Below, one piece after another: positions 1,458-46,186 of a DNA stretch of 64,000 nt. The notes under the pieces were generated by a model, which had not been told where the DNA came from, ran no database searches, and saw only the letters and a list, made by a program, of their open reading frames with translations. Both the position numbers and the translations under genes were made by a program. Location: sequence record QB031383.1; one strand, given 5' to 3'. This stretch comes from a phage. Numbering within the stretch: the first letter of the stretch is position 1; the number at the start of each line of letters is the position of its first letter.

Positions 1458-1630
1458 TGAAAATATTACGAGTGAATATTGAAACTGCTTGGTGTGGATG
1501 CAATGAGGTTGTGGATATCGAAATTGAAGATGATATGTCTCAAGAGGATATAGAAGATCTTGCGCACGAAACCTTTCAGGATTATTGTAATTACGGGTTC
1601 CATATTTTAGAGGAGGAAGAAGATGTATAA
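1457..1630 (+). CDS. hypothetical small acidic protein
   Basis: 57 aa ORF not in the track (below 60 aa); ATG overlaps preceding stop (TAATG); ends in EEEEDV. Confidence 0.3.
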   Translation: MKILRVNIETAWCGCNEVVDIEIEDDMSQEDIEDLAHETFQDYCNYGFHILEEEEDV

Positions 1631-2021
1631 TCCAACAGGTATTCTTTTAAAACTTACAGTAACAGACCCTACTCTTTTCACCAAGTTAGCAAGTGGTGAA
1701 GTTTATGAAGTAATGAAAGATGATGACGGTTGGTGTTATCTTTGTGGCTACTTCCTCTGTGATGCAGAAGAGTTAGAATCCATTGTAACTAAAGGTTTTT
1801 ATGAAGAACCAGGGTTCCGTGTGGAAACTACGCAGAAACCTGATACCATTACGTTGACTCGACAAGAACTGATCACAATCATTGAAGATGCTTTTATTGA
1901 TGGCTGGAATACGCAAGATAATGACTGGGGTGGACCCGAAGCTTTTCTGGAACATCATAAAACTTATGGAGACTCTTGTGAAACCACTATAGCTCTTGAT
2001 AATCTGAAGGAGGGTTTGTAA
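1623..2021 (+). CDS. hypothetical protein
   Basis: 132 aa ORF, GGAGG RBS upstream, overlaps neighbours by a few nt as in a coupled operon. Confidence 0.5.
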   Translation: MYNPTGILLKLTVTDPTLFTKLASGEVYEVMKDDDGWCYLCGYFLCDAEELESIVTKGFYEEPGFRVETTQKPDTITLTRQELITIIEDAFIDGWNTQDNDWGGPEAFLEHHKTYGDSCETTIALDNLKEGL

Positions 2022-2584
2022 TGGGTTGTTTTAGCTTTTTGTGCAAAGAATCGGGCAAAGCTGCCCTTTCTACTTCTTTCGACGGATCACCTTGTTATCT
2101 CTTTCTTTTGAAGGACGGTGTTGTTATTGAAGAGATGTATGGCAACTATGATAGTTATGGTTGTGTTTTCTCTGGAAAGGAGGATGAAAACGGCGTTCGT
2201 GAACGGTTCGAATGGGCTATGGATTGGGGTAAGGTTTGTGATTTGATGCATTCCTCAAATCCAAGGGACGGTATCGCTATGGTGCTGGAAGAGTACTTTA
2301 CAGGTGAAATCCCTACAGAACAATCTGACGGAGATCCTAACCAAGGTTGGGGTGATGGTGAAGAAGATCCAGATTGTTTTTTCAGCACAGAAAAGAATAA
2401 GTTTAAACGTGTTGACAACCCTTATCACAAAGTGCATAATACTCTCATTGAAACAGAAGATGACAAGATGGAAATTGAAGAAGATGATCCTCTTGTAACA
2501 CTTCCTATAAGTGAGTTACAAAAGATCACTAAGGAAGCTTACGATTTGGGCTTCAAAATTGGTAGAGGAGGTATGCGTGTTTAG
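2021..2584 (+). CDS. hypothetical protein
   Basis: 187 aa ORF; GAAGGAGG RBS immediately upstream; no recognisable motifs. Confidence 0.5.
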   Translation: MGCFSFLCKESGKAALSTSFDGSPCYLFLLKDGVVIEEMYGNYDSYGCVFSGKEDENGVRERFEWAMDWGKVCDLMHSSNPRDGIAMVLEEYFTGEIPTEQSDGDPNQGWGDGEEDPDCFFSTEKNKFKRVDNPYHKVHNTLIETEDDKMEIEEDDPLVTLPISELQKITKEAYDLGFKIGRGGMRV

Positions 2585-2856: not shown

Positions 2857-3651
2857 ATGTCCGAGAAAATCAGCCTGAAAAAACGTCAAGAAAACCTTGC
2901 TTTCTCTCTGAAAAAGAATAAGAACCTGAATGAAGGTAAGATTGTTCTTCGTGTAGCATGTGCTCTAGATATTTCTGGTAGTATGCATGGTCTATATTCT
3001 AGTGGGGTAGTGAGTGATTTTGTAGGTAAACTGCTTCCTTTTGGTATGCTGTTCGACGATAATCAACAAATTGATATGTGGGCCTTCAATACGAGTTCCC
3101 AAGAGCTTACTCCAGCAACAGCAGATGTTTACGATGACTATGTTGGTAAATGTATGCGTAATGTTCGTATCGGAGGTGGAACAAATTACGCCCCTGTAAT
3201 GGCGGATATCTACGATGAGTATTTTGGCACTGTTACTAAATATATTACCACTAAACAAGTGGTACAAGAGGAGGCTCCAAAGAAAGGCTTCTTTAATCGT
3301 CTGCTTGGTAAAACTGAAACAGTGTCTGTAGAGCGTGAAAAAGTTGTAGCTGTATCTGAACCAGGTGCTGACGTTACCCCTGGTGTTGTATTCTTCCAGA
3401 CGGATGGTGAGAATGGTGATCCTAGTGCTGTTCGTCGTCTTATCGAAGAGAATAAGAATAAACCTATTTATTGGTTCATGGTTGGCGTTGGTAATGAGAA
3501 GTTTGGCTTCCTGAAAGAACTGGCAAATGCTTATGATAATGTTGGTTTTATTGGCATTAAAGATTTAGACTTGACAGATTCAGAGCTTTATGACAAACTC
3601 TTATCTGAAGAGTTCGGAGAGTGGGTTGTTAAAGTAGGTGCTAAAAAATGA
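2857..3651 (+). CDS. vWA domain protein with TerD-like N-terminal start (TerF C-terminal-type vWA)
   Basis: MIDAS motifs present (DISGSM, GGGTNYAPVM, FFQTDGEN); N-terminus MSEKISLKK resembles the TerD-like gene at 4162. Confidence 0.6.
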   Translation: MSEKISLKKRQENLAFSLKKNKNLNEGKIVLRVACALDISGSMHGLYSSGVVSDFVGKLLPFGMLFDDNQQIDMWAFNTSSQELTPATADVYDDYVGKCMRNVRIGGGTNYAPVMADIYDEYFGTVTKYITTKQVVQEEAPKKGFFNRLLGKTETVSVEREKVVAVSEPGADVTPGVVFFQTDGENGDPSAVRRLIEENKNKPIYWFMVGVGNEKFGFLKELANAYDNVGFIGIKDLDLTDSELYDKLLSEEFGEWVVKVGAKK

Positions 3652-4161: not shown

Positions 4162-4764
4162 ATGACTGATAAAATTTCCCTGAAAAAAGGCTCTAGCGAA
4201 AAAATTTCCCTGAAGAAAGTTGCTCCGGCTCTGAAAGAACTGCGCCTGGAATTCTCTTGGAAATCTGATTCTAAACTGGATCTGGATGTAAGTGCACTGG
4301 TTTGTCGTCACAATGCCGCTGGCAATCCTGAAATGCTGTCTGCACGTCATCTGGTTTGCTATGCTAACAAGTTTGATCCTGAACGTTCTACCTTCGCTGG
4401 TGACGATGTTCGTGATGGAACTGGCAGCATGGAGCAGATTGATATTACTCTGGCTAAAATCTCTCCTGATGCACAAGAGATTGCCTTTGTTCTGACCATT
4501 GATGATGATACAGGTCTGAAACGTTTTGGTCATGCTTCTGAAGGTATGCTTAAAATCTTCGACTCCGAGCGCAATGTGGAAATTCTGGATTTTGACTTCC
4601 TGGCTCCTGAAGTAGCTGGCAACACAATCTGCCACGTGGCTTCCTTGGTTCGTGAAGATGGGGAATGGAAGCTGAAAGCATATGGTGTAGGTAAAGCTGG
4701 TCTGGATATTTGTGATGTGGTGATGGCCTTCGGTGGTAAAAAAGAATGGTATGAATGTCCATAA
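4162..4764 (+). CDS. terD: TerD-domain stress response protein
   Basis: 200 aa; TerD-like features (N-terminal KISLKKG repeats, LDLDVSALV, GDD..DG acidic Ca-binding-type motifs); strong RBS GAGGAG. Confidence 0.65.
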   Translation: MTDKISLKKGSSEKISLKKVAPALKELRLEFSWKSDSKLDLDVSALVCRHNAAGNPEMLSARHLVCYANKFDPERSTFAGDDVRDGTGSMEQIDITLAKISPDAQEIAFVLTIDDDTGLKRFGHASEGMLKIFDSERNVEILDFDFLAPEVAGNTICHVASLVREDGEWKLKAYGVGKAGLDICDVVMAFGGKKEWYECP

Positions 4765-17852: not shown

Positions 17853-20528
17853 TTAGTCGTAATATTTCAAACCTGTAATGAACTTCGATCCCCAATCCGC
17901 ACTTGCGGCGGTGAACGTCAACATCCAAGTTGTAGCTGTACCAGTGAAGACCTCTCGTTGCACAGTACCATCAGTGTGGTAAATGTCCACGCCAGTATGT
18001 CCATTCTTAGGAATAGTGAAGGTAACAGCACTGGTAGTGTCTCGTGCATAAGAACAAACAAATGGTGTCCCCGCCCAAACTGGATTTGTCATATCACCCA
18101 TCTCAAGCTGTGGAACCCAAGCAATAAGACCTGCCGTACCATCTCCTGCGAAAGTGTCTGATCCACTTGCATTCAAAGCTATAATCTCATAGGTTATAGA
18201 TGCTTGTTTGGCAACTGTCACTTTGTGTAGAATTACACGATACCAACCGTTCCCCATATCGATTATGTTTGCATCTGCACCTGTAAATGTTCCAGCTACA
18301 AGATCATAAGTCCCTTCGTTAATCTCATCTCCTGAAGTCAATTTGAGTTTCACTTTAGTGATCCCGTCTGGCTTCAAGAATACGGATGCCGCCCAGTGCT
18401 TACCTGCTGTAATATCAGAAGCTGTATTCACTGCTGATAAAATATGTTGTCCTGAAGTTGTAGAAGGTGTTAACTTGTAAGTGTTAGCCGTAGTTCCAAC
18501 CGGAGAGTTGATTGTTGATGCTGTGACTGTCAAGTTCGTCTTCAACCACGGGGAAGCTGTTGTCAAGTTATTGTTGATAAAGATATGTGTACGGTTGGCT
18601 GCTACAACACGTCTACCTTGTGGAGTTGTACCAACATATTCTAAAGGTGCTACGGGAGCAGAACTCTCTGTAGGTACAAGGATATCTCCAGAAGCCCTGG
18701 CATAACGGTTACTCCTGTTGACCTTTACATCCGCCGGAATAGTTTCTTGCGTCAAATCATAGTCCATCACAATGACCACAGCATTCACTGTGAGATAAGA
18801 ACTATCTTCGGCAGTTACCACACCTTGATAAGTTGCTCTACAACCGATACGACAACCTCCATCAGCAACCGCTGTAATAACGCCTGTAACGGGGTCAACT
18901 GTTGCTACCGTAGGGTCATTAGAGAAATACTCAACAACCATACCAGGTAAGCTTGCTGCTCCTGTTGGCGTTATTTCTGCTACCATTGTTTGTGTTGTTC
19001 CTACATCCATCGCAGATAAGCTAGGAGTGTAAACGCTCAATGTTGAAGCATATCCTCCAGAGGTATCTGATAAAGTTGTTCCTTCAGCGTTTAAGGCTGT
19101 CATACCTGCATCAAAACCACCTTCTGCATGGAAAGTCATTAAACCAGTAGATGATATTGTCATGTTTGCAGGGGCAGAAGAAGTGTATTTAATATTGAAA
19201 AGTTTACCTCCTTCTGGGCTAACAGAATGTGTCAACTGTTTAGTTCCACCTACAATACAAATTCCTAAAGAATCTGTAGTTAAGCCAGTTGCCAGAATAT
19301 CACCCGTAATCACGGAGCTTGCTATTGGTGTGAATTTATTATAGTTTAGACCACTATTGAACAGATACGAGGCTTTCCCATCTTTCCAAATACCGGAATA
19401 ATACATATCCCCGTTATAAACGAAAAAGGTTCCTTGATAACCTAATTGGTTAGTAATATCCATATTCAGCGTATGAACGCTTGTGAGCTTGTTTATATCC
19501 CAGGAACCCACTCCTTCAGGTTTAACTGGTTTTCCCACTTGGAGTGGATCTCCGCTCGCAGAATCATACCCCAAACCTAAGTTTGCAGTGTAGTTCTTAC
19601 CAATAGCCCACAAGGAATTGTTGATCCCAACGAAAAAAGAGTGGCGGCTTGGTGGAAATTTCCATGTTGAGAAACCTGCTGCAAAGGTATCCAGTTTAGT
19701 GTAGGTTGTTTCTGTATTAGACCTGACATATAAGTAGTTTACCGTGCCCGTACCACCGGAGGTATCTCCTACAACTATTGTCTGGGAAACTGTATTGATG
19801 TAATCTTTGACATACACTGTTTCAGTAGTGGATATCGTGGCATTGACAAAAGCGGTTGTTGTGTTATTATTACCTGCTAAACCTTTACTAGCTCCACAAA
19901 CACGCAAGGTTCCCACATTGTTGACATAAGAGCATTGGTTGTAACCTGCATCAAAAGCAACTGCTGAACTTGTTATCTGACGAGGAGTAGAAACTTCGTT
20001 AGTAGTGCTTGCACCTAAACTACCTACTGTGTTTTGACCCGATCCATAAAGAACACCACTATTCATTAACCAGAGAGTATTGTTATACCCTCCTTTAACC
20101 TCTTTAAGATTGGCTAAAGAAATAGTCCCTGTTATTACAGATGGAAAGCTGGTCCAAGTAGTTACACATGCATCCGTACCACCTGCTGCTATAGATCCTA
20201 CCAACCCTGCTGTCAATCCTGAATATTGCCATCCCCCACTGTTAGTTTTAATAACAAAACAACGATCTGCGGTAAACACATCCGCTACTACAGTAGAAGC
20301 TAAGTGGAAATTATTGAATCGTGCACTACGAGTTCCATCTGCAATCTCACCAAAGAGGTTTGCGCCTTGAGTAAACAATCTACCATCATTAAGCAAAATT
20401 GCCAAACTGCTGTTAGAATTACCAGCGTTATCTGGGTAATCTAAAGTAATTACTTTTTTAACAATACCTGCTGGCAGAGGAACGACACCAGTGCTGGTCA
20501 TAATAGTAAATATTGGAATTGGAAACAT
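17853..20528 (-). CDS. tail fiber / receptor-binding protein
   Basis: 891 aa, Gly/Thr/Ser/Asn-rich, last gene of the late operon; AGGGTTTAA RBS then ATG. Confidence 0.55.
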   Translation of the reverse strand: MFPIPIFTIMTSTGVVPLPAGIVKKVITLDYPDNAGNSNSSLAILLNDGRLFTQGANLFGEIADGTRSARFNNFHLASTVVADVFTADRCFVIKTNSGGWQYSGLTAGLVGSIAAGGTDACVTTWTSFPSVITGTISLANLKEVKGGYNNTLWLMNSGVLYGSGQNTVGSLGASTTNEVSTPRQITSSAVAFDAGYNQCSYVNNVGTLRVCGASKGLAGNNNTTTAFVNATISTTETVYVKDYINTVSQTIVVGDTSGGTGTVNYLYVRSNTETTYTKLDTFAAGFSTWKFPPSRHSFFVGINNSLWAIGKNYTANLGLGYDSASGDPLQVGKPVKPEGVGSWDINKLTSVHTLNMDITNQLGYQGTFFVYNGDMYYSGIWKDGKASYLFNSGLNYNKFTPIASSVITGDILATGLTTDSLGICIVGGTKQLTHSVSPEGGKLFNIKYTSSAPANMTISSTGLMTFHAEGGFDAGMTALNAEGTTLSDTSGGYASTLSVYTPSLSAMDVGTTQTMVAEITPTGAASLPGMVVEYFSNDPTVATVDPVTGVITAVADGGCRIGCRATYQGVVTAEDSSYLTVNAVVIVMDYDLTQETIPADVKVNRSNRYARASGDILVPTESSAPVAPLEYVGTTPQGRRVVAANRTHIFINNNLTTASPWLKTNLTVTASTINSPVGTTANTYKLTPSTTSGQHILSAVNTASDITAGKHWAASVFLKPDGITKVKLKLTSGDEINEGTYDLVAGTFTGADANIIDMGNGWYRVILHKVTVAKQASITYEIIALNASGSDTFAGDGTAGLIAWVPQLEMGDMTNPVWAGTPFVCSYARDTTSAVTFTIPKNGHTGVDIYHTDGTVQREVFTGTATTWMLTFTAASADWGSKFITGLKYYD

Positions 20529-40663: not shown

Positions 40664-40721
40664 GATAACCTCGTAGTAATGATAATGCCAAAAGGAAGAT
40701 GCAAGATCTTCCCATATTGAT

Positions 40722-40752
40722 TATTGTAACACATATAGAAACTTCGTGTCAA
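40722..40752 (-). promoter_or_regulatory. sigma70-like promoter on the minus strand (TTGACA ~18 nt TTACAAT)
   Basis: Read on the reverse complement immediately downstream of the tape-measure terminator. Confidence 0.45.
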
Positions 40753-40756
40753 GGGA

Positions 40757-40784
40757 AACGAAAAAACCCCGCCGAAGCGAGGTA
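40757..40784 (-). terminator. rho-independent terminator after the tape measure gene
   Basis: Minus strand CCUCGC-UUCG-GCGGGG (one G-U pair) followed by UUUUUU. Confidence 0.65.
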
Positions 40785-40789
40785 TTTTA

Positions 40790-42778
40790 TTAACCACCAG
40801 TGTTAGATTGTCCACTTAGAGTTGAAAGAGACAAACGTTGGAAAATGCTATTTCCGCTATTTTGAATTCTTGCATCAAGAATATTTCCAAACTCGGAAGA
40901 AGGACTGATCGTAACTTTGATAAGATCACTTGGTATTGCTACCGTATTCTCAACAACAGGTTGATTACGAGCCAAACTTACGTTAGGTGTATAGGCTGAT
41001 TCACGTAAATCTTCAAGAGGATTACCAAATCCAAAAGCACGTGTCCTTGTTTGTTCTCCTCTCCACATACGACCAATATCTTGTGTATCAATACCTGTTA
41101 AATTGTACAACCAATCTGCTACAGGATTGCTGTCTCCACTTTGCGTTGCCTCGTATGCTTTTTGTGCCATAGATTTATTAGGATCTGTGTTGTCTCCGAA
41201 TGTATCTGGGAATGTTTCTTTAAGCCAATTGGTAAAAGATCCGAAACCATCTCCCAATTCTTTAGCAAAACCTCCTAATTGAACTGTTGTCTTACCGAGT
41301 TCTTCACCTAAATCTTTGGCAAACTGATCTAGCACTTTAACGTTATCCAACCAAGAATCATCTTTAGGTAACGCTTTCACAAAACCCTCTAAGAAGTGGT
41401 TCTGCATACCTTGACCTACAAGCTGAACTGTTGCAGCAAAACGAGTAAACTCCTTAGAAGCATCTATTTGTTCCTGAGTTAATGTTGCACCTGTTCTTTG
41501 AAGCATTTTCAATACTTCATTGTATCCTTCGCCGTTTTTACTAAACATTCGTTGGTAGTGCATAAGGTCGTCACCAAGGTTTTCAAGAAGTCGCCCGATT
41601 TGAGCAGAGTTCATACCTCGACGTTCACCTTCATTAACAGTAGCCTGAATAAAAGCTAAAGGATCGTTCTGTAAAGGTTTAAGCTGTTCTGGATTCCATC
41701 CAAACAAGTTCATAATGTCATTTATGCCATTATCACCGCCTTTCCACTTCCCTTCTTTCTCATTCCATTTTGAGGCTAAAACTGTATTACCAAGACGTTC
41801 ACGAACGTCTTTAATATTATCTATTGACTTAATAATATTTGCAGAGTCTACACCGTTCTGTTCACCCCAAGCTGTCATTGCCAAAATAGCGTTGGCGTTT
41901 GTCTGAACGTTTTCAGCACCACGACTTACAAGTTTAATTCTTTCGTTAGTATTCATCAACGTGTTACCAACTACAGAACCACCTGCAAACAGCCCAGCAC
42001 CTATTAAAGAGGATGCAATCATGCGTGGATTAAGACCTGCTGCACCTTCTTTTAATTGTCCATATCGACGATCACGATCACGTTTTTGTTGAGCTAATTC
42101 ACGCTTACGGTTGCGTTCTATATCTCTAAGTTCACGATTTCGCATACGTATACGCATTTTAGCTTCTGCTTCTAGCTCTCTACGAATACGGCGACGACCG
42201 CGAACCTCGTCTTCTATTTCAGCATTCTTTTCACGATGAGATCTGCGTAAAGCATCCAACTGGTGAGCAAGAGCTTGGTTCATACGTTGAAGAGTTATTT
42301 CACCCTTTTTGTATTGCTCTACAGCTTTACCCATAACGTCCCTAGCTTCTTGCATAGCCCCAGGACTGGCTTTACTAAACGCTCTTGCTCTGTAGTTAAA
42401 GTTCTGCAAACGAAGATTACCTAAATCTTCCCTACGTGCTGCTGCTTTAGCTTCGCGTTCAGCAGCTTTACGAGCTTTTTCTTCTTCTCTTCCTTGCGGG
42501 GTTTTAGGAGTTCTAGGTCTGCCAGATCCGCCTACAGGAGCACCCGCTCCAGCGGGAGTAGGTGCTCGCATAGGTTTTTGACTTTGAGTTTGAGCTTTCT
42601 TAAGTTCACGCTCAATCTCTTTCATTTGTTGTCTAAACTTGGTCATGTTCATAGTGGGTTGCATTTTATTTGCAAACTTCTGAACACTCAACACGGCATC
42701 TTTTGCTTCCTTGAGACTGTTCTTGTCCACCTTAAACGTAACCACGTTACTAATTTTGGAGGCGTTAATTTCTAACAA
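40790..42778 (-). CDS. tail tape measure protein
   Basis: 662 aa; N-terminal highly charged coiled-coil, hydrophobic Gly-rich segment, downstream of chaperone pair. Confidence 0.7.
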   Translation of the reverse strand: MLEINASKISNVVTFKVDKNSLKEAKDAVLSVQKFANKMQPTMNMTKFRQQMKEIERELKKAQTQSQKPMRAPTPAGAGAPVGGSGRPRTPKTPQGREEEKARKAAEREAKAAARREDLGNLRLQNFNYRARAFSKASPGAMQEARDVMGKAVEQYKKGEITLQRMNQALAHQLDALRRSHREKNAEIEDEVRGRRRIRRELEAEAKMRIRMRNRELRDIERNRKRELAQQKRDRDRRYGQLKEGAAGLNPRMIASSLIGAGLFAGGSVVGNTLMNTNERIKLVSRGAENVQTNANAILAMTAWGEQNGVDSANIIKSIDNIKDVRERLGNTVLASKWNEKEGKWKGGDNGINDIMNLFGWNPEQLKPLQNDPLAFIQATVNEGERRGMNSAQIGRLLENLGDDLMHYQRMFSKNGEGYNEVLKMLQRTGATLTQEQIDASKEFTRFAATVQLVGQGMQNHFLEGFVKALPKDDSWLDNVKVLDQFAKDLGEELGKTTVQLGGFAKELGDGFGSFTNWLKETFPDTFGDNTDPNKSMAQKAYEATQSGDSNPVADWLYNLTGIDTQDIGRMWRGEQTRTRAFGFGNPLEDLRESAYTPNVSLARNQPVVENTVAIPSDLIKVTISPSSEFGNILDARIQNSGNSIFQRLSLSTLSGQSNTGG

Positions 42779-42798
42779 AGTATGTTCCTCGTGTTGGA

Positions 42799-43017
42799 TT
42801 AAACAAGTTTCTTAAACAAATCTGACATTTTATTTGTCTGGTTTTGATGTTTTCTCTTTATTGAAGTGTCTTTAACATACATGGCTTCAACATACTCTTC
42901 GTATGTTAAATACTCATATAGTTTTAAAAGATAATCTACACCGTAGTTATCCAATGTTTTCAGTGTTTCCGAGGTATCTTTAACGACTTTGCAAAGAATA
43001 ACCTCATACCACTTCAA
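42799..43017 (-). CDS. frameshift extension (T-like part) of the tail assembly chaperone
   Basis: ORF is in the -1 frame relative to 43065-43547 and is open back to the slippery site at 43128-43134. Confidence 0.5.
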   Translation of the reverse strand: MKWYEVILCKVVKDTSETLKTLDNYGVDYLLKLYEYLTYEEYVEAMYVKDTSIKRKHQNQTNKMSDLFKKLV

Positions 43018-43064
43018 AGTAAGGGTTTTCGTTGCTGTGTCGATAGCATGTTCAATCGCAGGTG

Positions 43065-43547
43065 TTAATTTGCTGCTAAACTCGTCATCGCCTGAAGCTG
43101 TGTGAACAGTTTTCCGAAACCTCGTTTGAAAAAAGGGCCGTAGTTTACCTCCAGAACTTTAGCAGTAAGATCTAACACTAGTTCTGGGTGAGCCATAAAT
43201 AATTCATCAAAATTTTCTGCAACGTTATAACCGTCTTGAGTATAAACCTCATCTAAAATTTTACGCAAAAAGACAGTTAAATTCTTTTCTTCCAAACCTG
43301 CAAAAAGTTGGATTAGTGCCATAGCAATACGTGACTCAAGGTCTTCGTCTGCGGACATTGTTGCTGTGCTATACATAGTCATAGGAACAACCAGAACACT
43401 ACCCAATTCTGGAATCCTGTCAAACACTTTAGATGGACTCCACTTCATAATACGGAAAGTAACAGATCTGTTTCCATCTAACGGAATCTCAACTACTTCT
43501 TCTGGTCGAGCATATTTTTGAATTGTGTTATCTTGTTCTTGTGACAT
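43065..43547 (-). CDS. tail assembly chaperone (G-like)
   Basis: 160 aa ORF immediately upstream of the tape measure gene; contains slippery heptamer near its 3' end. Confidence 0.5.
   Translation of the reverse strand: MSQEQDNTIQKYARPEEVVEIPLDGNRSVTFRIMKWSPSKVFDRIPELGSVLVVPMTMYSTATMSADEDLESRIAMALIQLFAGLEEKNLTVFLRKILDEVYTQDGYNVAENFDELFMAHPELVLDLTAKVLEVNYGPFFKRGFGKLFTQLQAMTSLAAN
43128..43134 (-). other. -1 programmed ribosomal frameshift slippery site U_UUU_UUC
   Basis: Minus-strand codons CCU UUU UUC; the -1 frame from here reads without stops into the 42799-43017 ORF. Confidence 0.55.
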
Positions 43548-43561
43548 ATTTTCCTCTCTAA

Positions 43562-43586
43562 TGATAAAAAGGGCATTTCTGCCCTT
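43562..43586 (-). terminator. rho-independent terminator after the tail tube gene
   Basis: Minus strand AAGGGCA-GAAA-UGCCCUU followed by UUUUUAU. Confidence 0.7.
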
Positions 43587-43592
43587 TATTTA

Positions 43593-44072
43593 TTATTGAA
43601 TTGTCAGAGCAGAGATTGAGTTAAGGGTGCTCAAACCTACACCAACTTCATTACGCAGAAGGCTTGCATCTTTAAGACCAATAACCCATTGGTTCTCTGT
43701 AATCATTTCGCCAATAGTATCTTCAGGCTGACTTTGAATCCATCCAATCGTGCTAATGTAATAGCCACGTGGGTCTTCCAAGTAAACGCTGAATGCTACT
43801 TGACGAGTAGAATACATTGTTTGTGCATATGTTGCAAGTACTTCGTTAGCTGGAGATGTGCGTTGCAAAGACATTGTGAGTGTTCCCAAGCGGTTACGAC
43901 TCAAAGCTAGTGAAACGTCTCCATCAGTCCCTGAATAAGGGTTGATAATATCGTTAGATTTAGCAATAACGATTTTAGTATCAGCCGCAAAACCCCACGG
44001 TTCCCAACCACCTAATGAAAGGATAACTTGAGATGGGTCGTAGGCCATTACGCCAGTAAGCATTTTATCCAT
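43593..44072 (-). CDS. tail tube protein
   Basis: 159 aa ORF directly downstream of the sheath-like gene, followed by a strong terminator. Confidence 0.5.
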   Translation of the reverse strand: MDKMLTGVMAYDPSQVILSLGGWEPWGFAADTKIVIAKSNDIINPYSGTDGDVSLALSRNRLGTLTMSLQRTSPANEVLATYAQTMYSTRQVAFSVYLEDPRGYYISTIGWIQSQPEDTIGEMITENQWVIGLKDASLLRNEVGVGLSTLNSISALTIQ

Positions 44073-44118
44073 TATAGATCCTCTTTATTTTGATAACGGG
44101 GGCTTAACCCCCGCCGTA

Positions 44119-45492
44119 TTAGTTTGCAGTACGGTTAGTCAGGACGTTGACCTGAACTTTAACGTAATGGAAGAAGCCAGCGTAAACATATTCAATCTTC
44201 ATCCCATCGACCAGACGAGCATTGATTTGCGCATCAGTCATATCGGCACGAGAAGGAATATAAACAATAGGTTTCAGATCGACACGCAAACCAGTCTCTT
44301 CAGAAGTAACAACTTCATTAGCGATGGAACCGTTGAGGATACCTACTTGGATCGGGTTAGCCAGAACAGCTTGTCGAATCAAAGCCAGACCGTTTGAAGT
44401 AGCACGAACACCGCCACCCAGCATAGACTGTTGTTTAAACAGTGTAAACAGTGATTCTTCTGTGCGAGCTTTAAACCACAAAGCATGAACAACATAGTCA
44501 ACAAAGAAACCGCTAACCATCAATCCATCACGATAGAACAGAGTTCCATGCTCTTTACGATAGATGTTACCGTTCTGTTGAACAATATTGTTTTCCGAAG
44601 TCTGATCCAGTTTCTCGATCTCTACACCTACCAGTGTTTTACCGTGAAGAGTAGTTAAACCAGGTTGACGAGAACAGATTGCACCAACAACTGCTGCTTC
44701 TGGGAATACAGAATCTGCATCGGTCATCCACAAAGCAAAGCAAGTGTTATTATAACCGAGGTCATTCAGTCGTTCCAGAACGTTATCTTCTGCTTTCGTT
44801 TTAATTCCAGGTTCAGAGCTAGAGAAGAAGTAAACTTTATCATTCTCTTCTACCCATGCAGCCAAAGCTAGAACATCTTCTGTTTCATGGGAATCTGAAA
44901 GGGTCCAGAACCAGCTACTATCAATATCATGCAGAGCAGCAATATCTTCCGTAATAGCATTAGCATAGACAGTTTCTTGAGTGAAACCTGTGCTGTCAAT
45001 AGAACCAAACTTACCTTCTACTGGAGTGAAAGTCATTGCAGCGCCGTTGTTAGCTACTGTAAACAGTGGGCCATAAACGAGATCTGCATTGATCATTTCA
45101 GTCAGACCAACTACAATCTCTTGTGCAGTTGCAGTGTCATCAGCAATGAATTTAAATTCTTTTTTCTTGGTACCATTTTTGATGGTAATTGTGTAAGTTG
45201 CACTATCTTCTACGATTGGAGTTAGAGTAAAGTTTGTAACTTCACGCTTACCAACCATAACTTGATCTGGTGGGAACAAACCGTTGAACAGTTTGACTGC
45301 CATAATATACGCTGGATCATTTAATCCATAACCTGCTTCCAAAAGTGCATCGGAAGAAGAGTAATATTGAATCGCTTCGCCAGTTACGTTCTGACCTGTA
45401 AGGATCAGGGGAATATCGAACTGGGTTTCACGAATTGATGTAGCACCATACAGTAAAGTTACGGTTGCTACCTTTTCACGAAAAGTTGCCAT
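44119..45492 (-). CDS. tail sheath protein
   Basis: 457 aa; size and position (before tube, chaperones, tape measure) as in contractile tails. Confidence 0.55.
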   Translation of the reverse strand: MATFREKVATVTLLYGATSIRETQFDIPLILTGQNVTGEAIQYYSSSDALLEAGYGLNDPAYIMAVKLFNGLFPPDQVMVGKREVTNFTLTPIVEDSATYTITIKNGTKKKEFKFIADDTATAQEIVVGLTEMINADLVYGPLFTVANNGAAMTFTPVEGKFGSIDSTGFTQETVYANAITEDIAALHDIDSSWFWTLSDSHETEDVLALAAWVEENDKVYFFSSSEPGIKTKAEDNVLERLNDLGYNNTCFALWMTDADSVFPEAAVVGAICSRQPGLTTLHGKTLVGVEIEKLDQTSENNIVQQNGNIYRKEHGTLFYRDGLMVSGFFVDYVVHALWFKARTEESLFTLFKQQSMLGGGVRATSNGLALIRQAVLANPIQVGILNGSIANEVVTSEETGLRVDLKPIVYIPSRADMTDAQINARLVDGMKIEYVYAGFFHYVKVQVNVLTNRTAN

Positions 45493-45526
45493 TTATGCTC
45501 CTGTTAGAAACTTAATTCCAATGAGT

Positions 45527-46186
45527 TTATTCGGTAGGGTTGTTAAATAATGATCCATTTTGATTAACTGACGAGTATTCGCCTGGAACCAAAGTAATTG
45601 CATAAACCCTGTTTAGAATTAAATCTAAAGGGATAGGATCATTGTAACTATCTCTGAATGAACGGATGTGCATGTTGATTGCTTCTATTGGTGTAGTAGC
45701 AATATCTTCAATACTCATACGAGTGTTGAACGTCATAACCATACGCGCTCTTAATTCAGTCTTATCTCCGTCTACAATCGTATTGGCTTGAGCTATATTA
45801 GAGGCTCCTAAAAAACCAAGACCTTTAGAATAGAGATGTTTGTATTTTAATTCCTCTGCACCACGGAGAGCAGCCAGAACATAGCTCATCAAAGTGGTAG
45901 GTCTTCCACGATAGGCTACAAGTTCAATCTCGTAGGTATTATCCATCTCGTAGGAATACATATCATTTTGAATAGAGCTTCGGTAAGACCAACCTCCAGA
46001 ATCGCTGGAAGTGATAATACGTAGTGCTAGGTAAGGAGTATCCGGTTTAATGAATGGCTTATCCATAACATAGACTGGCAACCCCACTAATTCTTGAAGG
46101 AAGCCACCTATATTTAAGTAGATGGCATTTTCGTATGCTTCTATTTGTTGGTAAATATTAGCCAAAGTTTCCTCCTTCTGTTCCAT
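45527..46186 (-). CDS. structural protein (head-tail joining region)
   Basis: 219 aa ORF; overlaps upstream gene by 29 nt. Confidence 0.4.
   Translation of the reverse strand: MEQKEETLANIYQQIEAYENAIYLNIGGFLQELVGLPVYVMDKPFIKPDTPYLALRIITSSDSGGWSYRSSIQNDMYSYEMDNTYEIELVAYRGRPTTLMSYVLAALRGAEELKYKHLYSKGLGFLGASNIAQANTIVDGDKTELRARMVMTFNTRMSIEDIATTPIEAINMHIRSFRDSYNDPIPLDLILNRVYAITLVPGEYSSVNQNGSLFNNPTE

What the first reader, a model, noticed from the sequence alone, without database searches (positions are those of the whole stretch)
42799..43547. Programmed -1 frameshift in the tail assembly chaperone upstream of the tape measure gene
The chaperone gene contains the slippery heptamer U_UUU_UUC (minus strand, 43128-43134) 18 codons before its stop. 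The -1 frame from that point is open for roughly 110 codons into the 42799-43017 ORF, which ends just upstream of the tape measure start. This matches the conserved G/GT frameshift of tailed phages and means the 72-aa track ORF is probably not an independent gene.
Basis: partly seen in the sequence, partly recalled or inferred. Interest (0 to 1): 0.45.

Follow-up and report, generated by a model that had tools for sequence, protein, structure and literature searches.

The report
Tail chaperone G/GT ribosomal frameshift
A coliphage of the phAPEC8 group makes a short and a long form of its tail assembly chaperone by letting a few ribosomes slip back one base at a TTTTTTC site; this is the ordinary, well-known trick of tailed phages, but public records of this phage group do not annotate it.

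Summary
The window is a Phapecoctavirus (phAPEC8-like myovirus, 99.4% identical to Mt1B1_P17). On the minus strand the gene order is sheath, tube, tail assembly chaperone (43547-43065, Pfam Phage_TAC_15), a small ORF, and the tape measure. U_UUU_UUC (43134-43128) is in the correct phase and overlaps a second in-phase heptamer, C_CCU_UUU (43137-43131). From there the -1 frame is open for 109 codons to the stop at 42799. The products would be G (160 aa) and GT (249 aa). One small correction: 20 codons, not 18, separate the heptamer from the G stop.

Comparison settles the interpretation. Every Stephanstirmvirinae, Vequintavirinae and Ounavirinae locus I inspected keeps the in-phase TTTTTTC and an 80-92-codon -1 extension. 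The heptamer is the most conserved DNA in the locus. More distant relatives keep the -1 ORF with other in-phase motifs (A_AAT_TTT, G_GGA_AAG, C_CCT_TTG). The "72-aa ORF" has no Shine-Dalgarno sequence and no conserved start codon. The sequence upstream of its annotated TTG is under purifying selection in the T frame.

There is no conserved 3' RNA structure. An upstream GGAGG 13 nt away is a plausible stimulator.

The homologous site is already annotated as ribosomal slippage in Mooglevirus Michonne, so this is a new, unannotated member of a known kind. Interest is low.

The parts
43065..43547 (-). Gene G: tail assembly chaperone, 160 aa, the zero-frame product
   Evidence: ORF. Pfam PF21822 Phage_TAC_15, E=1.3e-23, 84.3 bits. 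phrog_3840 tail assembly chaperone, E=2.8e-55. SD-like GAGAGGA lies upstream of the ATG.
43128..43134 (-). Slippery heptamer U_UUU_UUC, in phase with G (codons 139-140, Phe-Phe)
   Evidence: Present in phase in every Stephanstirm-, Vequinta- and Ounavirinae locus inspected. Of the 29 unique contexts, 28 have Pro CCT, Cys TGT or Ser AGT at codon 0, so the third-base T stays while the amino acid changes. The centre of nucleotide conservation in the locus is here.
43131..43137 (-). Second, overlapping in-phase heptamer C_CCU_UUU; together the two form the 10-nt run CCCUUUUUUC
   Evidence: Present in the Stephanstirmvirinae-type loci only. CCCTTTTTTCAA is the longest invariant run in a 9-sequence alignment of the locus. 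A shift on either heptamer gives the same protein (...GPFFQT...), which follows directly from the sequence.
43148..43152 (-). SD-like GGAGG, 13 nt 5' of U_UUU_UUC (10 nt 5' of C_CCU_UUU); a candidate upstream stimulator (inferred)
   Evidence: Coordinates read. GGAGG or GAGGT occurs at this position in all 9 Stephanstirmvirinae-type sequences, and GGAGG also in rV5, Avunavirus, JH2 and Michonne. The Glu codon here is GAG in 21 of 24 sequences, although GAG is only 27% of Glu codons in the window. P of about 0.01 for such a motif in an 8-nt window.
42799..43128 (-). T extension: 109 codons plus stop in the -1 frame, translated only as the C-terminal part of GT (249 aa)
   Evidence: tblastn aligns residues 1-109 at 58-66% identity in Justusliebigvirus and other genera. 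RFR[KR] motif lies just after the slip site and a T-P...A[IM]..A....SL.W[YF] motif further on; both are conserved across subfamilies.
43065..43127 (-). Dual-coding zone: the last 20 codons of G overlap the first 21 codons of T
   Evidence: Synonymous divergence in the T frame falls to 0.225 here, against 0.71-0.82 downstream. GGTTTCG is fixed because it encodes Gly-Phe in frame 0 and Arg-Phe-Arg in frame -1.
42799..43017 (-).
   Evidence: Annotated as a separate CDS or left unannotated. Its TTG has no SD and lies inside a conserved motif. Relatives have their first possible start at codon 58-66 of T. Gene callers place the start at seven different alignment positions in 18 homologues.
40790..42778 (-). 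Tape measure protein gene (662 aa); starts 20 nt after the T stop
   Evidence: phrog_16051 tail length tape measure protein, 1249 bits; RefSeq annotation.
43593..44072 (-). Tail tube gene, upstream neighbour of G
   Evidence: phrog_280; PF11681 KPP10_Orf10, 24.4 bits, just under the cutoff of 25; annotated as tail tube in SKA64.
44119..45492 (-). Tail sheath gene
   Evidence: phrog_205 tail sheath, E=2.9e-100; PF11863.

Best explanation
This is the G/GT tail assembly chaperone locus of a phAPEC8-like myovirus, expressed by programmed -1 ribosomal frameshifting. Most ribosomes translate gene G (43547-43065) to its stop and make the 160-aa chaperone. A minority slip back one base when tRNA-Phe occupies the P site (UUU) and the A site (UUC) of U_UUU_UUC, or when tRNA-Pro and tRNA-Phe sit on the overlapping C_CCU_UUU. 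Those ribosomes continue in the -1 frame for 109 codons and make the 249-aa GT, which is G residues 1-140 fused to the T domain. The slippery run itself is the main determinant. An SD-like GGAGG 13 nt upstream probably pauses or strains the ribosome and raises the rate. No 3' hairpin or pseudoknot is involved. By analogy with lambda G/GT, G and the G part of GT coat the tape measure protein, while the T domain recruits tube subunits, and the fixed low GT:G ratio is set by the slip frequency.

Shown here: the site, its phase, the open frame, its conservation, the lack of initiation signals for T, and purifying selection on T. Inferred: that ribosomes actually shift here, the efficiency, the role of the GGAGG, and the binding partners.
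For: Anatomy.

Family and gene order: PF21822 and phrog_3840 for G, with sheath, tube and tape measure neighbours.

Conservation of the site: in-phase T_TTT_TTC plus an 80-92-codon -1 ORF is found in every inspected locus of Stephanstirmvirinae, Vequintavirinae and Ounavirinae. These comprise 16 GenBank loci and 32 of 33 IMG/VR loci, giving 29 unique contexts. Pro CCT, Cys TGT or Ser AGT precedes the run in 28 of them, and TTT-TTC is never TTC-TTT, although neighbouring 2-fold codons vary.

Other slippery motifs: more distant homologues keep the -1 ORF with different in-phase motifs. These are A_AAT_TTT (Vibrio S4-7), G_GGA_AAG (Rheinheimera Barba) and C_CCT_TTG (L056). The slip column is homologous in the G alignment.

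Nucleotide conservation peaks at the heptamer: 0.86 and 0.71 of columns invariant, against locus means of 0.29 and 0.26.

T has no start codon or SD: the first ATG/GTG/TTG in frame is at codon 37 here and at codons 58-66 in relatives, whereas G, the tape measure, tube and sheath genes all have SDs.

Selection on T: pN/pS is 0.46 between the G stop and the annotated TTG, against 0.41 downstream. The whole 109-aa segment aligns in other genera.

Motif efficiency: H_HH.U_UU.Y heptamers, which include both heptamers here, are among the most efficient in E. coli (PMC4066793).

Precedent: Michonne KT001916 has a joined CDS 'ribosomal slippage (47149)' inside the homologous TTTTTTC. A -1 PRF at a GTTTTT motif has been proposed for Vandenendeviridae and Andersonviridae (PMC12846349).
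Against: No experimental detection of GT exists for this phage group in the literature I searched. No conserved 3' stimulatory structure was found: z = -0.22 and alifold -1.4 kcal/mol. Efficiency may therefore be low. The SD-like element is absent in Certrevirus, Zyzzx and KpS8. No natural in-frame G-T fusion was found among homologues. The conserved element is also a T6 run, so the conservation of the X base and of the run does not by itself separate ribosomal slippage from RNA polymerase slippage. Part of the IMG/VR set was retrieved with the peptide VLE[VI]NYG[CP] just upstream of the site, which inflates conservation 5' of the heptamer.
Confidence: 0.86

Rival explanations
1. Transcriptional slippage. 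RNA polymerase stutters on the T6 run and adds one U to a fraction of mRNAs. Standard translation of those mRNAs then gives exactly the same GT protein.
For: A T5-T6 run is the element conserved from Pakpunavirus to Phapecoctavirus. In PaoP5 the T6 run is out of phase for a canonical heptamer, reading G_GUU_UUU. A non-frameshifting mechanism has been proposed for the chaperones of T4-like phages (title of reference 76 in PMC12846349; the paper itself could not be read). The protein products of the two mechanisms are indistinguishable.
Against: Documented bacterial slippage involves runs of about 9 A or T (PMC5009743), and T6 is short. Three distant homologues keep the -1 ORF with in-phase heptamers that have no homopolymer of 5 or more (A_AAT_TTT, G_GGA_AAG, C_CCT_TTG). 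Those motifs only make sense for tRNA re-pairing. Nankokuvirus has only T5 but does have a U_UUU tetramer in phase, and U_UU.U is a shift-prone tetramer in E. coli.
Confidence: 0.07
2. The downstream ORF is an independent small gene, the 72-aa 'hypothetical protein' of RefSeq, translated from the TTG at 43017. The heptamer is then a coincidence.
For: It is annotated this way in several records. A TTG start is possible, since the tape measure gene itself starts with TTG. An in-phase heptamer somewhere in a 30-codon overlap has a chance expectation of about 0.1.
Against: There is no SD before the TTG. The TTG encodes a conserved Leu inside the SL.W[YF] motif. Relatives L032, L040 and CB7 have no in-frame start before codon 58-66. 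The 16 codons upstream of the TTG evolve under purifying selection in this frame and align across genera. The frame is open for 47 codons upstream of the TTG. The heptamer is invariant in all relatives.
Confidence: 0.03
3. Translational coupling or re-initiation. Ribosomes terminating at the G stop (43065) restart in the -1 frame at a non-canonical codon just downstream and make a free T protein of about 88 aa.
For: The T frame is open across the G stop. Some callers start T 20-30 nt after the G stop at an ATG in phiWec181 and 05F01.
Against: The window has no ATG/GTG/TTG within 16 codons after the G stop. The -1-frame peptide RFR[KR] upstream of the G stop is conserved from Pakpunavirus to this phage, which shows that the overlap is read in the T frame. 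The overlap length (58-154 nt) is kept open in every lineage.
Confidence: 0.02

Closest known systems
Tape-measure chaperone frameshift of Mooglevirus and Felix O1-like phages (Ounavirinae), e.g. Citrobacter phage Michonne KT001916 and Moogle (PMC4319497)
   Same: The G protein is homologous and the slip falls in the same alignment column (N[YF]G-x-FF). The same heptamer T_TTT_TTC is used. In Michonne and JH2 the same GGAGG lies 13 nt upstream. The gene order sheath-tube-G-T-tape measure is the same, with a terminator-like hairpin between tube and G in both. Michonne's record carries a joined CDS 'ribosomal slippage'.
   Different: Only about 21% identity in G. The codon before the run is Ser AGT rather than Pro CCT, so there is no second C_CCU_UUU heptamer. 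The G tail after the slip is shorter (11-14 codons against 20) and the T part is shorter (about 80 codons).
-1 PRF at the 'GTTTTT' motif proposed for the tail assembly chaperones of Vandenendeviridae (Pakpunavirus Adele) and Andersonviridae (PMC12846349)
   Same: Same locus, same logic (an uninterrupted -1 frame across a region annotated as hypothetical or intergenic), and a homologous position. The RFR[KR] motif follows the slip site in the -1 frame.
   Different: In PaoP5 and PS24 the in-phase motif is G_GUU_UUU, a U_UUU tetramer with imperfect P-site re-pairing, not a canonical heptamer. That paper did not analyse Stephanstirmvirinae or Vequintavirinae for the frameshift.
Lambda G/GT and the conserved tail assembly frameshift of long-tailed dsDNA phages (Xu, Hendrix & Duda 2004, cited in PMC8785237 and PMC5009743)
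   Same: Two overlapping ORFs lie between the major tail or tube gene and the tape measure gene. [quoted passage not shown] Lambda's G:GT ratio is about 30:1, and neither product is in virions.
   Different: There is no detectable sequence relationship to lambda G; the Pfam family here is PF21822. The heptamer is U_UUU_UUC rather than G_GGA_AAG, although the Barba-phage homologue does use G_GGA_AAG. The slip is 20 codons before the G stop. This is a contractile-tail phage.
E. coli dnaX and IS911/IS3 -1 frameshift cassettes
   Same: A heptamer is combined with an upstream SD-like element that pairs with the 16S rRNA of elongating ribosomes (PMC4066793). The spacing here (10-13 nt) is similar to the 10 nt of dnaX (own knowledge).
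   Different: Those cassettes also use a 3' hairpin or pseudoknot. None is supported here.

Membership tests
G/GT-type tail assembly chaperone frameshift (Xu-Hendrix-Duda class) | The gene pair lies between the major tail/tube gene and the tape measure gene | tested here: met
   Tube 44072-43593, G 43547-43065, T to 42799, tape measure 42778-40790, all on the minus strand.
G/GT-type tail assembly chaperone frameshift (Xu-Hendrix-Duda class) | The second ORF overlaps the 3' end of the first in the -1 frame and extends it | tested here: met
   The -1 frame is open from 43158 to 42799, overlaps G by 91 nt and runs 88 codons beyond the G stop. The +1 frame closes after 4 codons.
G/GT-type tail assembly chaperone frameshift (Xu-Hendrix-Duda class) | A slippery sequence lies in phase within the overlap and is conserved among relatives | tested here: met
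   U_UUU_UUC and C_CCU_UUU. Conserved in all three subfamilies, with other in-phase motifs in outgroups.
G/GT-type tail assembly chaperone frameshift (Xu-Hendrix-Duda class) | The second ORF lacks its own translation initiation signals | tested here: met
   No SD and no conserved start codon; the first possible start is at codon 37 to 66, depending on the lineage.
G/GT-type tail assembly chaperone frameshift (Xu-Hendrix-Duda class) | Both G and GT are made, GT as the minor product, and both are needed for tail assembly | not testable with these tools
   Needs proteomics or genetics. No such data were found for phAPEC8, phi92 or rV5.
Pfam PF21822 Phage_TAC_15 | Score above the curated gathering threshold | tested here: met
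   84.3 bits against a cutoff of 22, residues 29-143, profile positions 3-125 of 127.
SD-stimulated -1 PRF (dnaX / IS911 type) | An SD-like sequence lies about 10-14 nt 5' of the heptamer | tested here: inconclusive
   GGAGG at 43152-43148, 13 nt (or 10 nt) upstream. It is enriched relative to codon usage but missing in some lineages. Its function was not tested.
SD-stimulated -1 PRF (dnaX / IS911 type) | A 3' stimulatory hairpin or pseudoknot | tested here: not met
   MFE z-scores of -0.22 and +1.11. Consensus fold -1.4 kcal/mol with no covariation support. No Rfam match reached a gathering score.
Programmed transcriptional slippage | A homopolymeric run long enough for RNA polymerase slippage (about 9 A/T in documented bacterial cases) | tested here: not met
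   The run is T6 here and T5 in Nankokuvirus. No run of 5 or more is present in the Vibrio S4-7, Barba or L056 homologues. Criterion taken from PMC5009743.

The most novel reading that the evidence does not exclude
The most novel reading not excluded is that GT in this whole supergroup (Stephanstirm-, Vequinta- and Ounavirinae, Pakpunavirus) is made partly or wholly by RNA polymerase stuttering on a run of only five or six T. That would extend the 'mechanism other than translational frameshifting' proposed for T4-like chaperones. A milder variant is that this is an efficient -1 PRF driven only by a double heptamer (CCCUUUUUUC) plus an upstream SD-like element, with no 3' structure at all.
Probability: 0.08. 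Interest if true: 0.45.

Novelty: new member of a known kind. Interest (0 to 1): 0.2.

Why it matters
The main value is for annotation. The roughly 20 Stephanstirmvirinae and Vequintavirinae records whose feature tables I read (and about 100 more seen only as feature names) list the T part as a stray 'hypothetical protein' or leave a gap of about 290 nt. None of those I opened carries a joined CDS. Recognising GT removes a spurious small gene and adds a real 249-aa assembly protein in phages that are being used for therapy work. The comparison also shows that one slip site at one homologous codon has been kept across several phage families, while distant branches swapped in other heptamers. 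That makes a tidy natural data set for studying frameshift-site evolution. It does not change what is known about how tails are built.

Tried and rejected
3' stimulatory structure: a single-sequence fold of +1..+88 and a 171-nt fold were no better than shuffles. RNAalifold on 9 Stephanstirmvirinae-type sequences gave -1.4 kcal/mol with an unfavourable covariation term. The Rfam scan gave only sub-threshold noise.

Natural G-T fusions or annotated slippage products: a search of the 5.8-billion-protein set with the T segment found only 18 stand-alone calls of 64-85 aa.

Solved structures: there is no sequence relative of G in the PDB. The AlphaFold2 model of T is a two-helix hairpin of moderate confidence (pLDDT 72, other models about 50) with no Foldseek match in the PDB, so it is uninformative.

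Locus search: the broad 18-sequence alignment was too divergent for the search for related loci, so I repeated it with 10 sequences.

Conserved GGTTTCG 6-9 nt after the heptamer: I considered it as an RNA signal. I rejected that because it is fully determined by Gly-Phe in frame 0 and Arg-Phe-Arg in frame -1.

Literature: there is no description of the frameshift for phAPEC8, phi92, rV5 or PVP-SE1. Vladimirov et al. 2022 is not held.

+1 frameshift: the +1 frame closes 4 codons past the G stop.

Full report
**What the window is.** Bases 40700-45600 are 99.4% identical to Escherichia phage Mt1B1_P17 and to about 60 other Phapecoctavirus genomes (phAPEC8-like, Stephanstirmvirinae, roughly 150-kb myoviruses). 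On the minus strand the ORFs run in this order:
- sheath, 45492-44119
- tube, 44072-43593
- a 160-aa ORF, 43547-43065
- a small ORF ending at 42799
- a 662-aa ORF, 42778-40790

The 160-aa protein matches Pfam PF21822 Phage_TAC_15 (84.3 bits, cutoff 22) and phrog_3840 'tail assembly chaperone'. The 662-aa protein matches phrog_16051, tape measure.

**Checking the observation.** TTTTTTC lies at 43134-43128 on the minus strand, at offset 413 of the chaperone ORF. The zero-frame codons are therefore CCU UUU UUC, and the heptamer reads U_UUU_UUC in the phase needed for tandem -1 slippage. It overlaps a second in-phase heptamer, C_CCU_UUU (43137-43131). A shift on either gives the same protein.

The -1 frame is open from 43158 to the stop at 42801-42799. 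The shifted product is 249 aa: 140 aa shared with G plus 109 new residues. Everything else is correct.

By chance alone the heptamer is not impressive, with about 0.1 expected in the overlap. A 120-codon open -1 run, however, has P of about 2e-6 at the local off-frame stop density of 0.105. The two other in-phase T_TTT_TTC sites in the window run into -1 stops after 11 and 5 codons.

**Comparative evidence.** I collected chaperone loci from GenBank phages by tblastn with G and with the tube protein. I also took 33 loci from IMG/VR.

Every locus from Stephanstirmvirinae (Phapecoctavirus, Justusliebigvirus, Klebsiella 05F01 and metagenomic relatives at 60-82% identity) has T_TTT_TTC in phase and a -1 ORF running 80-92 codons past the G stop. 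The same is true of every locus from Vequintavirinae (rV5, Avunavirus, Seunavirus, Henunavirus, Mydovirus, Certrevirus) and Ounavirinae (JH2, Zyzzx, Michonne).

In 28 of the 29 unique nucleotide contexts, the codon before the run encodes Pro, Cys or Ser and is CCT, TGT or AGT. The third-base T is kept even though the amino acid changes. The Phe-Phe pair is always TTT-TTC, while neighbouring two-fold codons vary freely: TAC/TAT 20:7 and ATT/ATC 11:10.

The heptamer is the centre of nucleotide conservation in the whole G-T locus. The longest invariant runs are CCCTTTTTTCAA (9 Stephanstirmvirinae-type sequences) and TGTTTTTTC (11 Vequintavirinae).

More distant homologues keep the -1 ORF but use other in-phase motifs:
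- A_AAT_TTT in Vibrio phage S4-7
- G_GGA_AAG (lambda's own heptamer) in Rheinheimera Barba phages
- C_CCT_TTG in L056
- G_GTT_TTT, non-canonical, in Pakpunavirus and Nankokuvirus

The slip column is homologous in the alignment of G proteins, at N[YF]G-x-[FV]F.

One caveat applies. One of the two search peptides for the IMG/VR scan was VLE[VI]NYG[CP], which lies directly upstream of the site. This inflates conservation 5' of the heptamer in that subset. The GenBank loci were found with whole proteins and show the same result.

**Is the downstream ORF an independent gene?** The evidence says no.
- In the window, the first ATG/GTG/TTG in the T frame is the TTG at codon 37. It has no SD-like sequence upstream. 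G, the tape measure, tube and sheath genes all have one.
- In relatives L032, L040 and CB7 the first possible start is at codon 58-66 of about 105-123.
- Gene callers placed the start at seven different alignment positions in 18 database homologues.
- The TTG codes for the Leu of a motif, SL.W[YF], that is conserved across subfamilies. The residues upstream of it (T-P...A[IM]..A) are conserved as well.
- tblastn aligns the full 109-aa segment at 58-66% identity in other genera.
- Among nine Stephanstirmvirinae-type sequences, pN/pS in the T frame is 0.46 for the 16 codons between the G stop and the TTG. This is the same as for the rest of T (0.41).
- In the overlap with G, synonymous change drops to 0.225, as expected for dual coding.
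- Immediately after the heptamer, both frames are conserved: Gly-Phe in frame 0 and Arg-Phe-Arg in frame -1. This fixes GGTTTCG from Pakpunavirus to this phage, and it shows that the -1 frame is already being read there. The shift therefore has to occur between 43158 and about 43122, where the only in-phase heptamers are the two described.

**Mechanism.** In E. coli, H_HH.U_UU.Y heptamers are among the most efficient -1 motifs. This class includes both U_UU.U_UU.C and C_CC.U_UU.U. U_UU.C and U_UU.U rank second and third among tetramers (PMC4066793).

I found no 3' stimulator. Folding energies are no better than shuffles (z = -0.22 and +1.11). The consensus fold of nine relatives is -1.4 kcal/mol without covariation. 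Rfam gives nothing above threshold.

Upstream, GGAGG (43152-43148) lies 13 nt from U_UUU_UUC and 10 nt from C_CCU_UUU. GGAGG or GAGGT sits at this position in all nine Stephanstirmvirinae-type sequences, and GGAGG also in rV5, Avunavirus, JH2 and Michonne. The Glu codon there is GAG in 21 of 24 sequences, although GAG is only 27% of Glu codons in this window. Such a motif is expected in an 8-nt window with P of about 0.01. SD-like elements are known upstream stimulators of bacterial -1 frameshifting (PMC4066793). The element is missing in Certrevirus, KpS8 and Zyzzx, so I treat it as a probable enhancer and not a requirement.

**Rivals.** Transcriptional slippage on the T6 run would give the same protein, and the T-run conservation alone cannot exclude it. 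Three points argue against it. T6 is short compared with the runs of about 9 documented in bacteria (PMC5009743). Three distant lineages use heptamers without such a run. Nankokuvirus has only T5. I give this rival about 7%. Independent initiation and re-initiation after the G stop are contradicted by the start-codon, SD and conservation data above.

**Comparison with what is known.** This is the conserved tail-assembly frameshift of long-tailed phages, of which lambda G/GT is the model (ratio about 30:1; PMC5009743). The closest described cases are homologous:
- Citrobacter phage Michonne (Mooglevirus) carries a joined CDS 'ribosomal slippage (47149)'. That coordinate falls inside the same TTTTTTC, with GGAGG 13 nt upstream.
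- The Moogle genome announcement mentions the frameshift (PMC4319497).
- A 2025 paper proposes a -1 PRF at a 'GTTTTT' motif for Vandenendeviridae and Andersonviridae, but it does not examine Stephanstirmvirinae or Vequintavirinae (PMC12846349).

In the records of those two subfamilies that I inspected, T is a separate hypothetical protein or is unannotated, and none of the records I opened carries a join. I found no paper describing the frameshift for phAPEC8, phi92, rV5 or PVP-SE1.

**Verdict.** This is a new, unannotated member of a well-known kind. Interest is low (0.2). Confidence that GT is made by -1 ribosomal frameshifting at 43137-43128 is 0.86. What remains untested is the actual production and ratio of GT, the contribution of the GGAGG, and the exclusion of RNA polymerase slippage.

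Noticed in passing
window 43568-43587 (minus strand): A terminator-like hairpin (AAAGGGCAGAAATGCCCTTT followed by TTATCATT) lies between the tube gene stop and the chaperone start. Michonne's annotators marked a terminator at the equivalent place. It may lower transcription of the chaperone and tape measure genes relative to sheath and tube.
   Followed up: partly
window 40766-40783 (minus strand): A strong terminator-like hairpin (ACCTCGCTTCGGCGGGGT followed by TTTTTCGTTT) lies directly after the tape measure stop at 40790. A near-consensus sigma-70-like promoter (TTGACA, 18 nt spacer, TACAAT, 40752-40723) lies just downstream.
   Followed up: no
window 17853-20528 (-) codon 296; window 2021-2584 (+) codon 118: Two other in-phase T_TTT_TTC heptamers occur in long ORFs. 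Their -1 frames close after 11 and 5 codons, so a slip there would only truncate the protein. I used them as negative controls.
   Followed up: yes
window 1623-2021 (+): An in-phase G_GGT_TTG lies within the 16-nt overlap with the next gene (2021-2584), which is in the -1 frame. It is probably an ordinary overlapping gene pair rather than a frameshift.
   Followed up: no
GenBank records MG0656xx ('Campylobacter phage'), OP562383 ('Acinetobacter phage vB_AbaM_ABPW7'), OK283618 ('Listeria phage LPML1'): At these tail genes, records labelled with non-enterobacterial hosts match coliphage groups closely: 98.8-99.8% DNA identity to rV5 for many MG0656xx records, 99.4% DNA identity of ABPW7 to the window, and 100% chaperone protein identity of LPML1 to the Hafnia Ounavirinae phage Zyzzx. 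The host labels look doubtful.
   Followed up: no
L023 3431-4108 (Rheinheimera phage barba_12-6I): A reverse-strand 'putative DNA binding protein' gene sits between the T ORF and the tape measure gene. This interrupts the otherwise universal adjacency. The same phage uses lambda's heptamer G_GGA_AAG.
   Followed up: no
L007 1551 (rV5 DQ832317 ORF50): The original rV5 annotation starts ORF50 at a CTG codon 3 nt before the heptamer. This is the maximal open frame, which is an implicit sign that no real start codon exists.
   Followed up: partly
L003 164-256 (phi92 NC_023693): A 'hypothetical tRNA' is annotated inside the tail sheath gene of phi92. It is likely a spurious prediction.
   Followed up: no
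L022 (PaoP5) 4440-4470 and L021 (PS24) 3555-3575: Pakpunavirus and Nankokuvirus chaperones have G_GUU_UUU in phase instead of a canonical heptamer. P-site re-pairing would be imperfect (GUU to GGU). This is either tetramer-type slippage or a different mechanism.
   Followed up: partly
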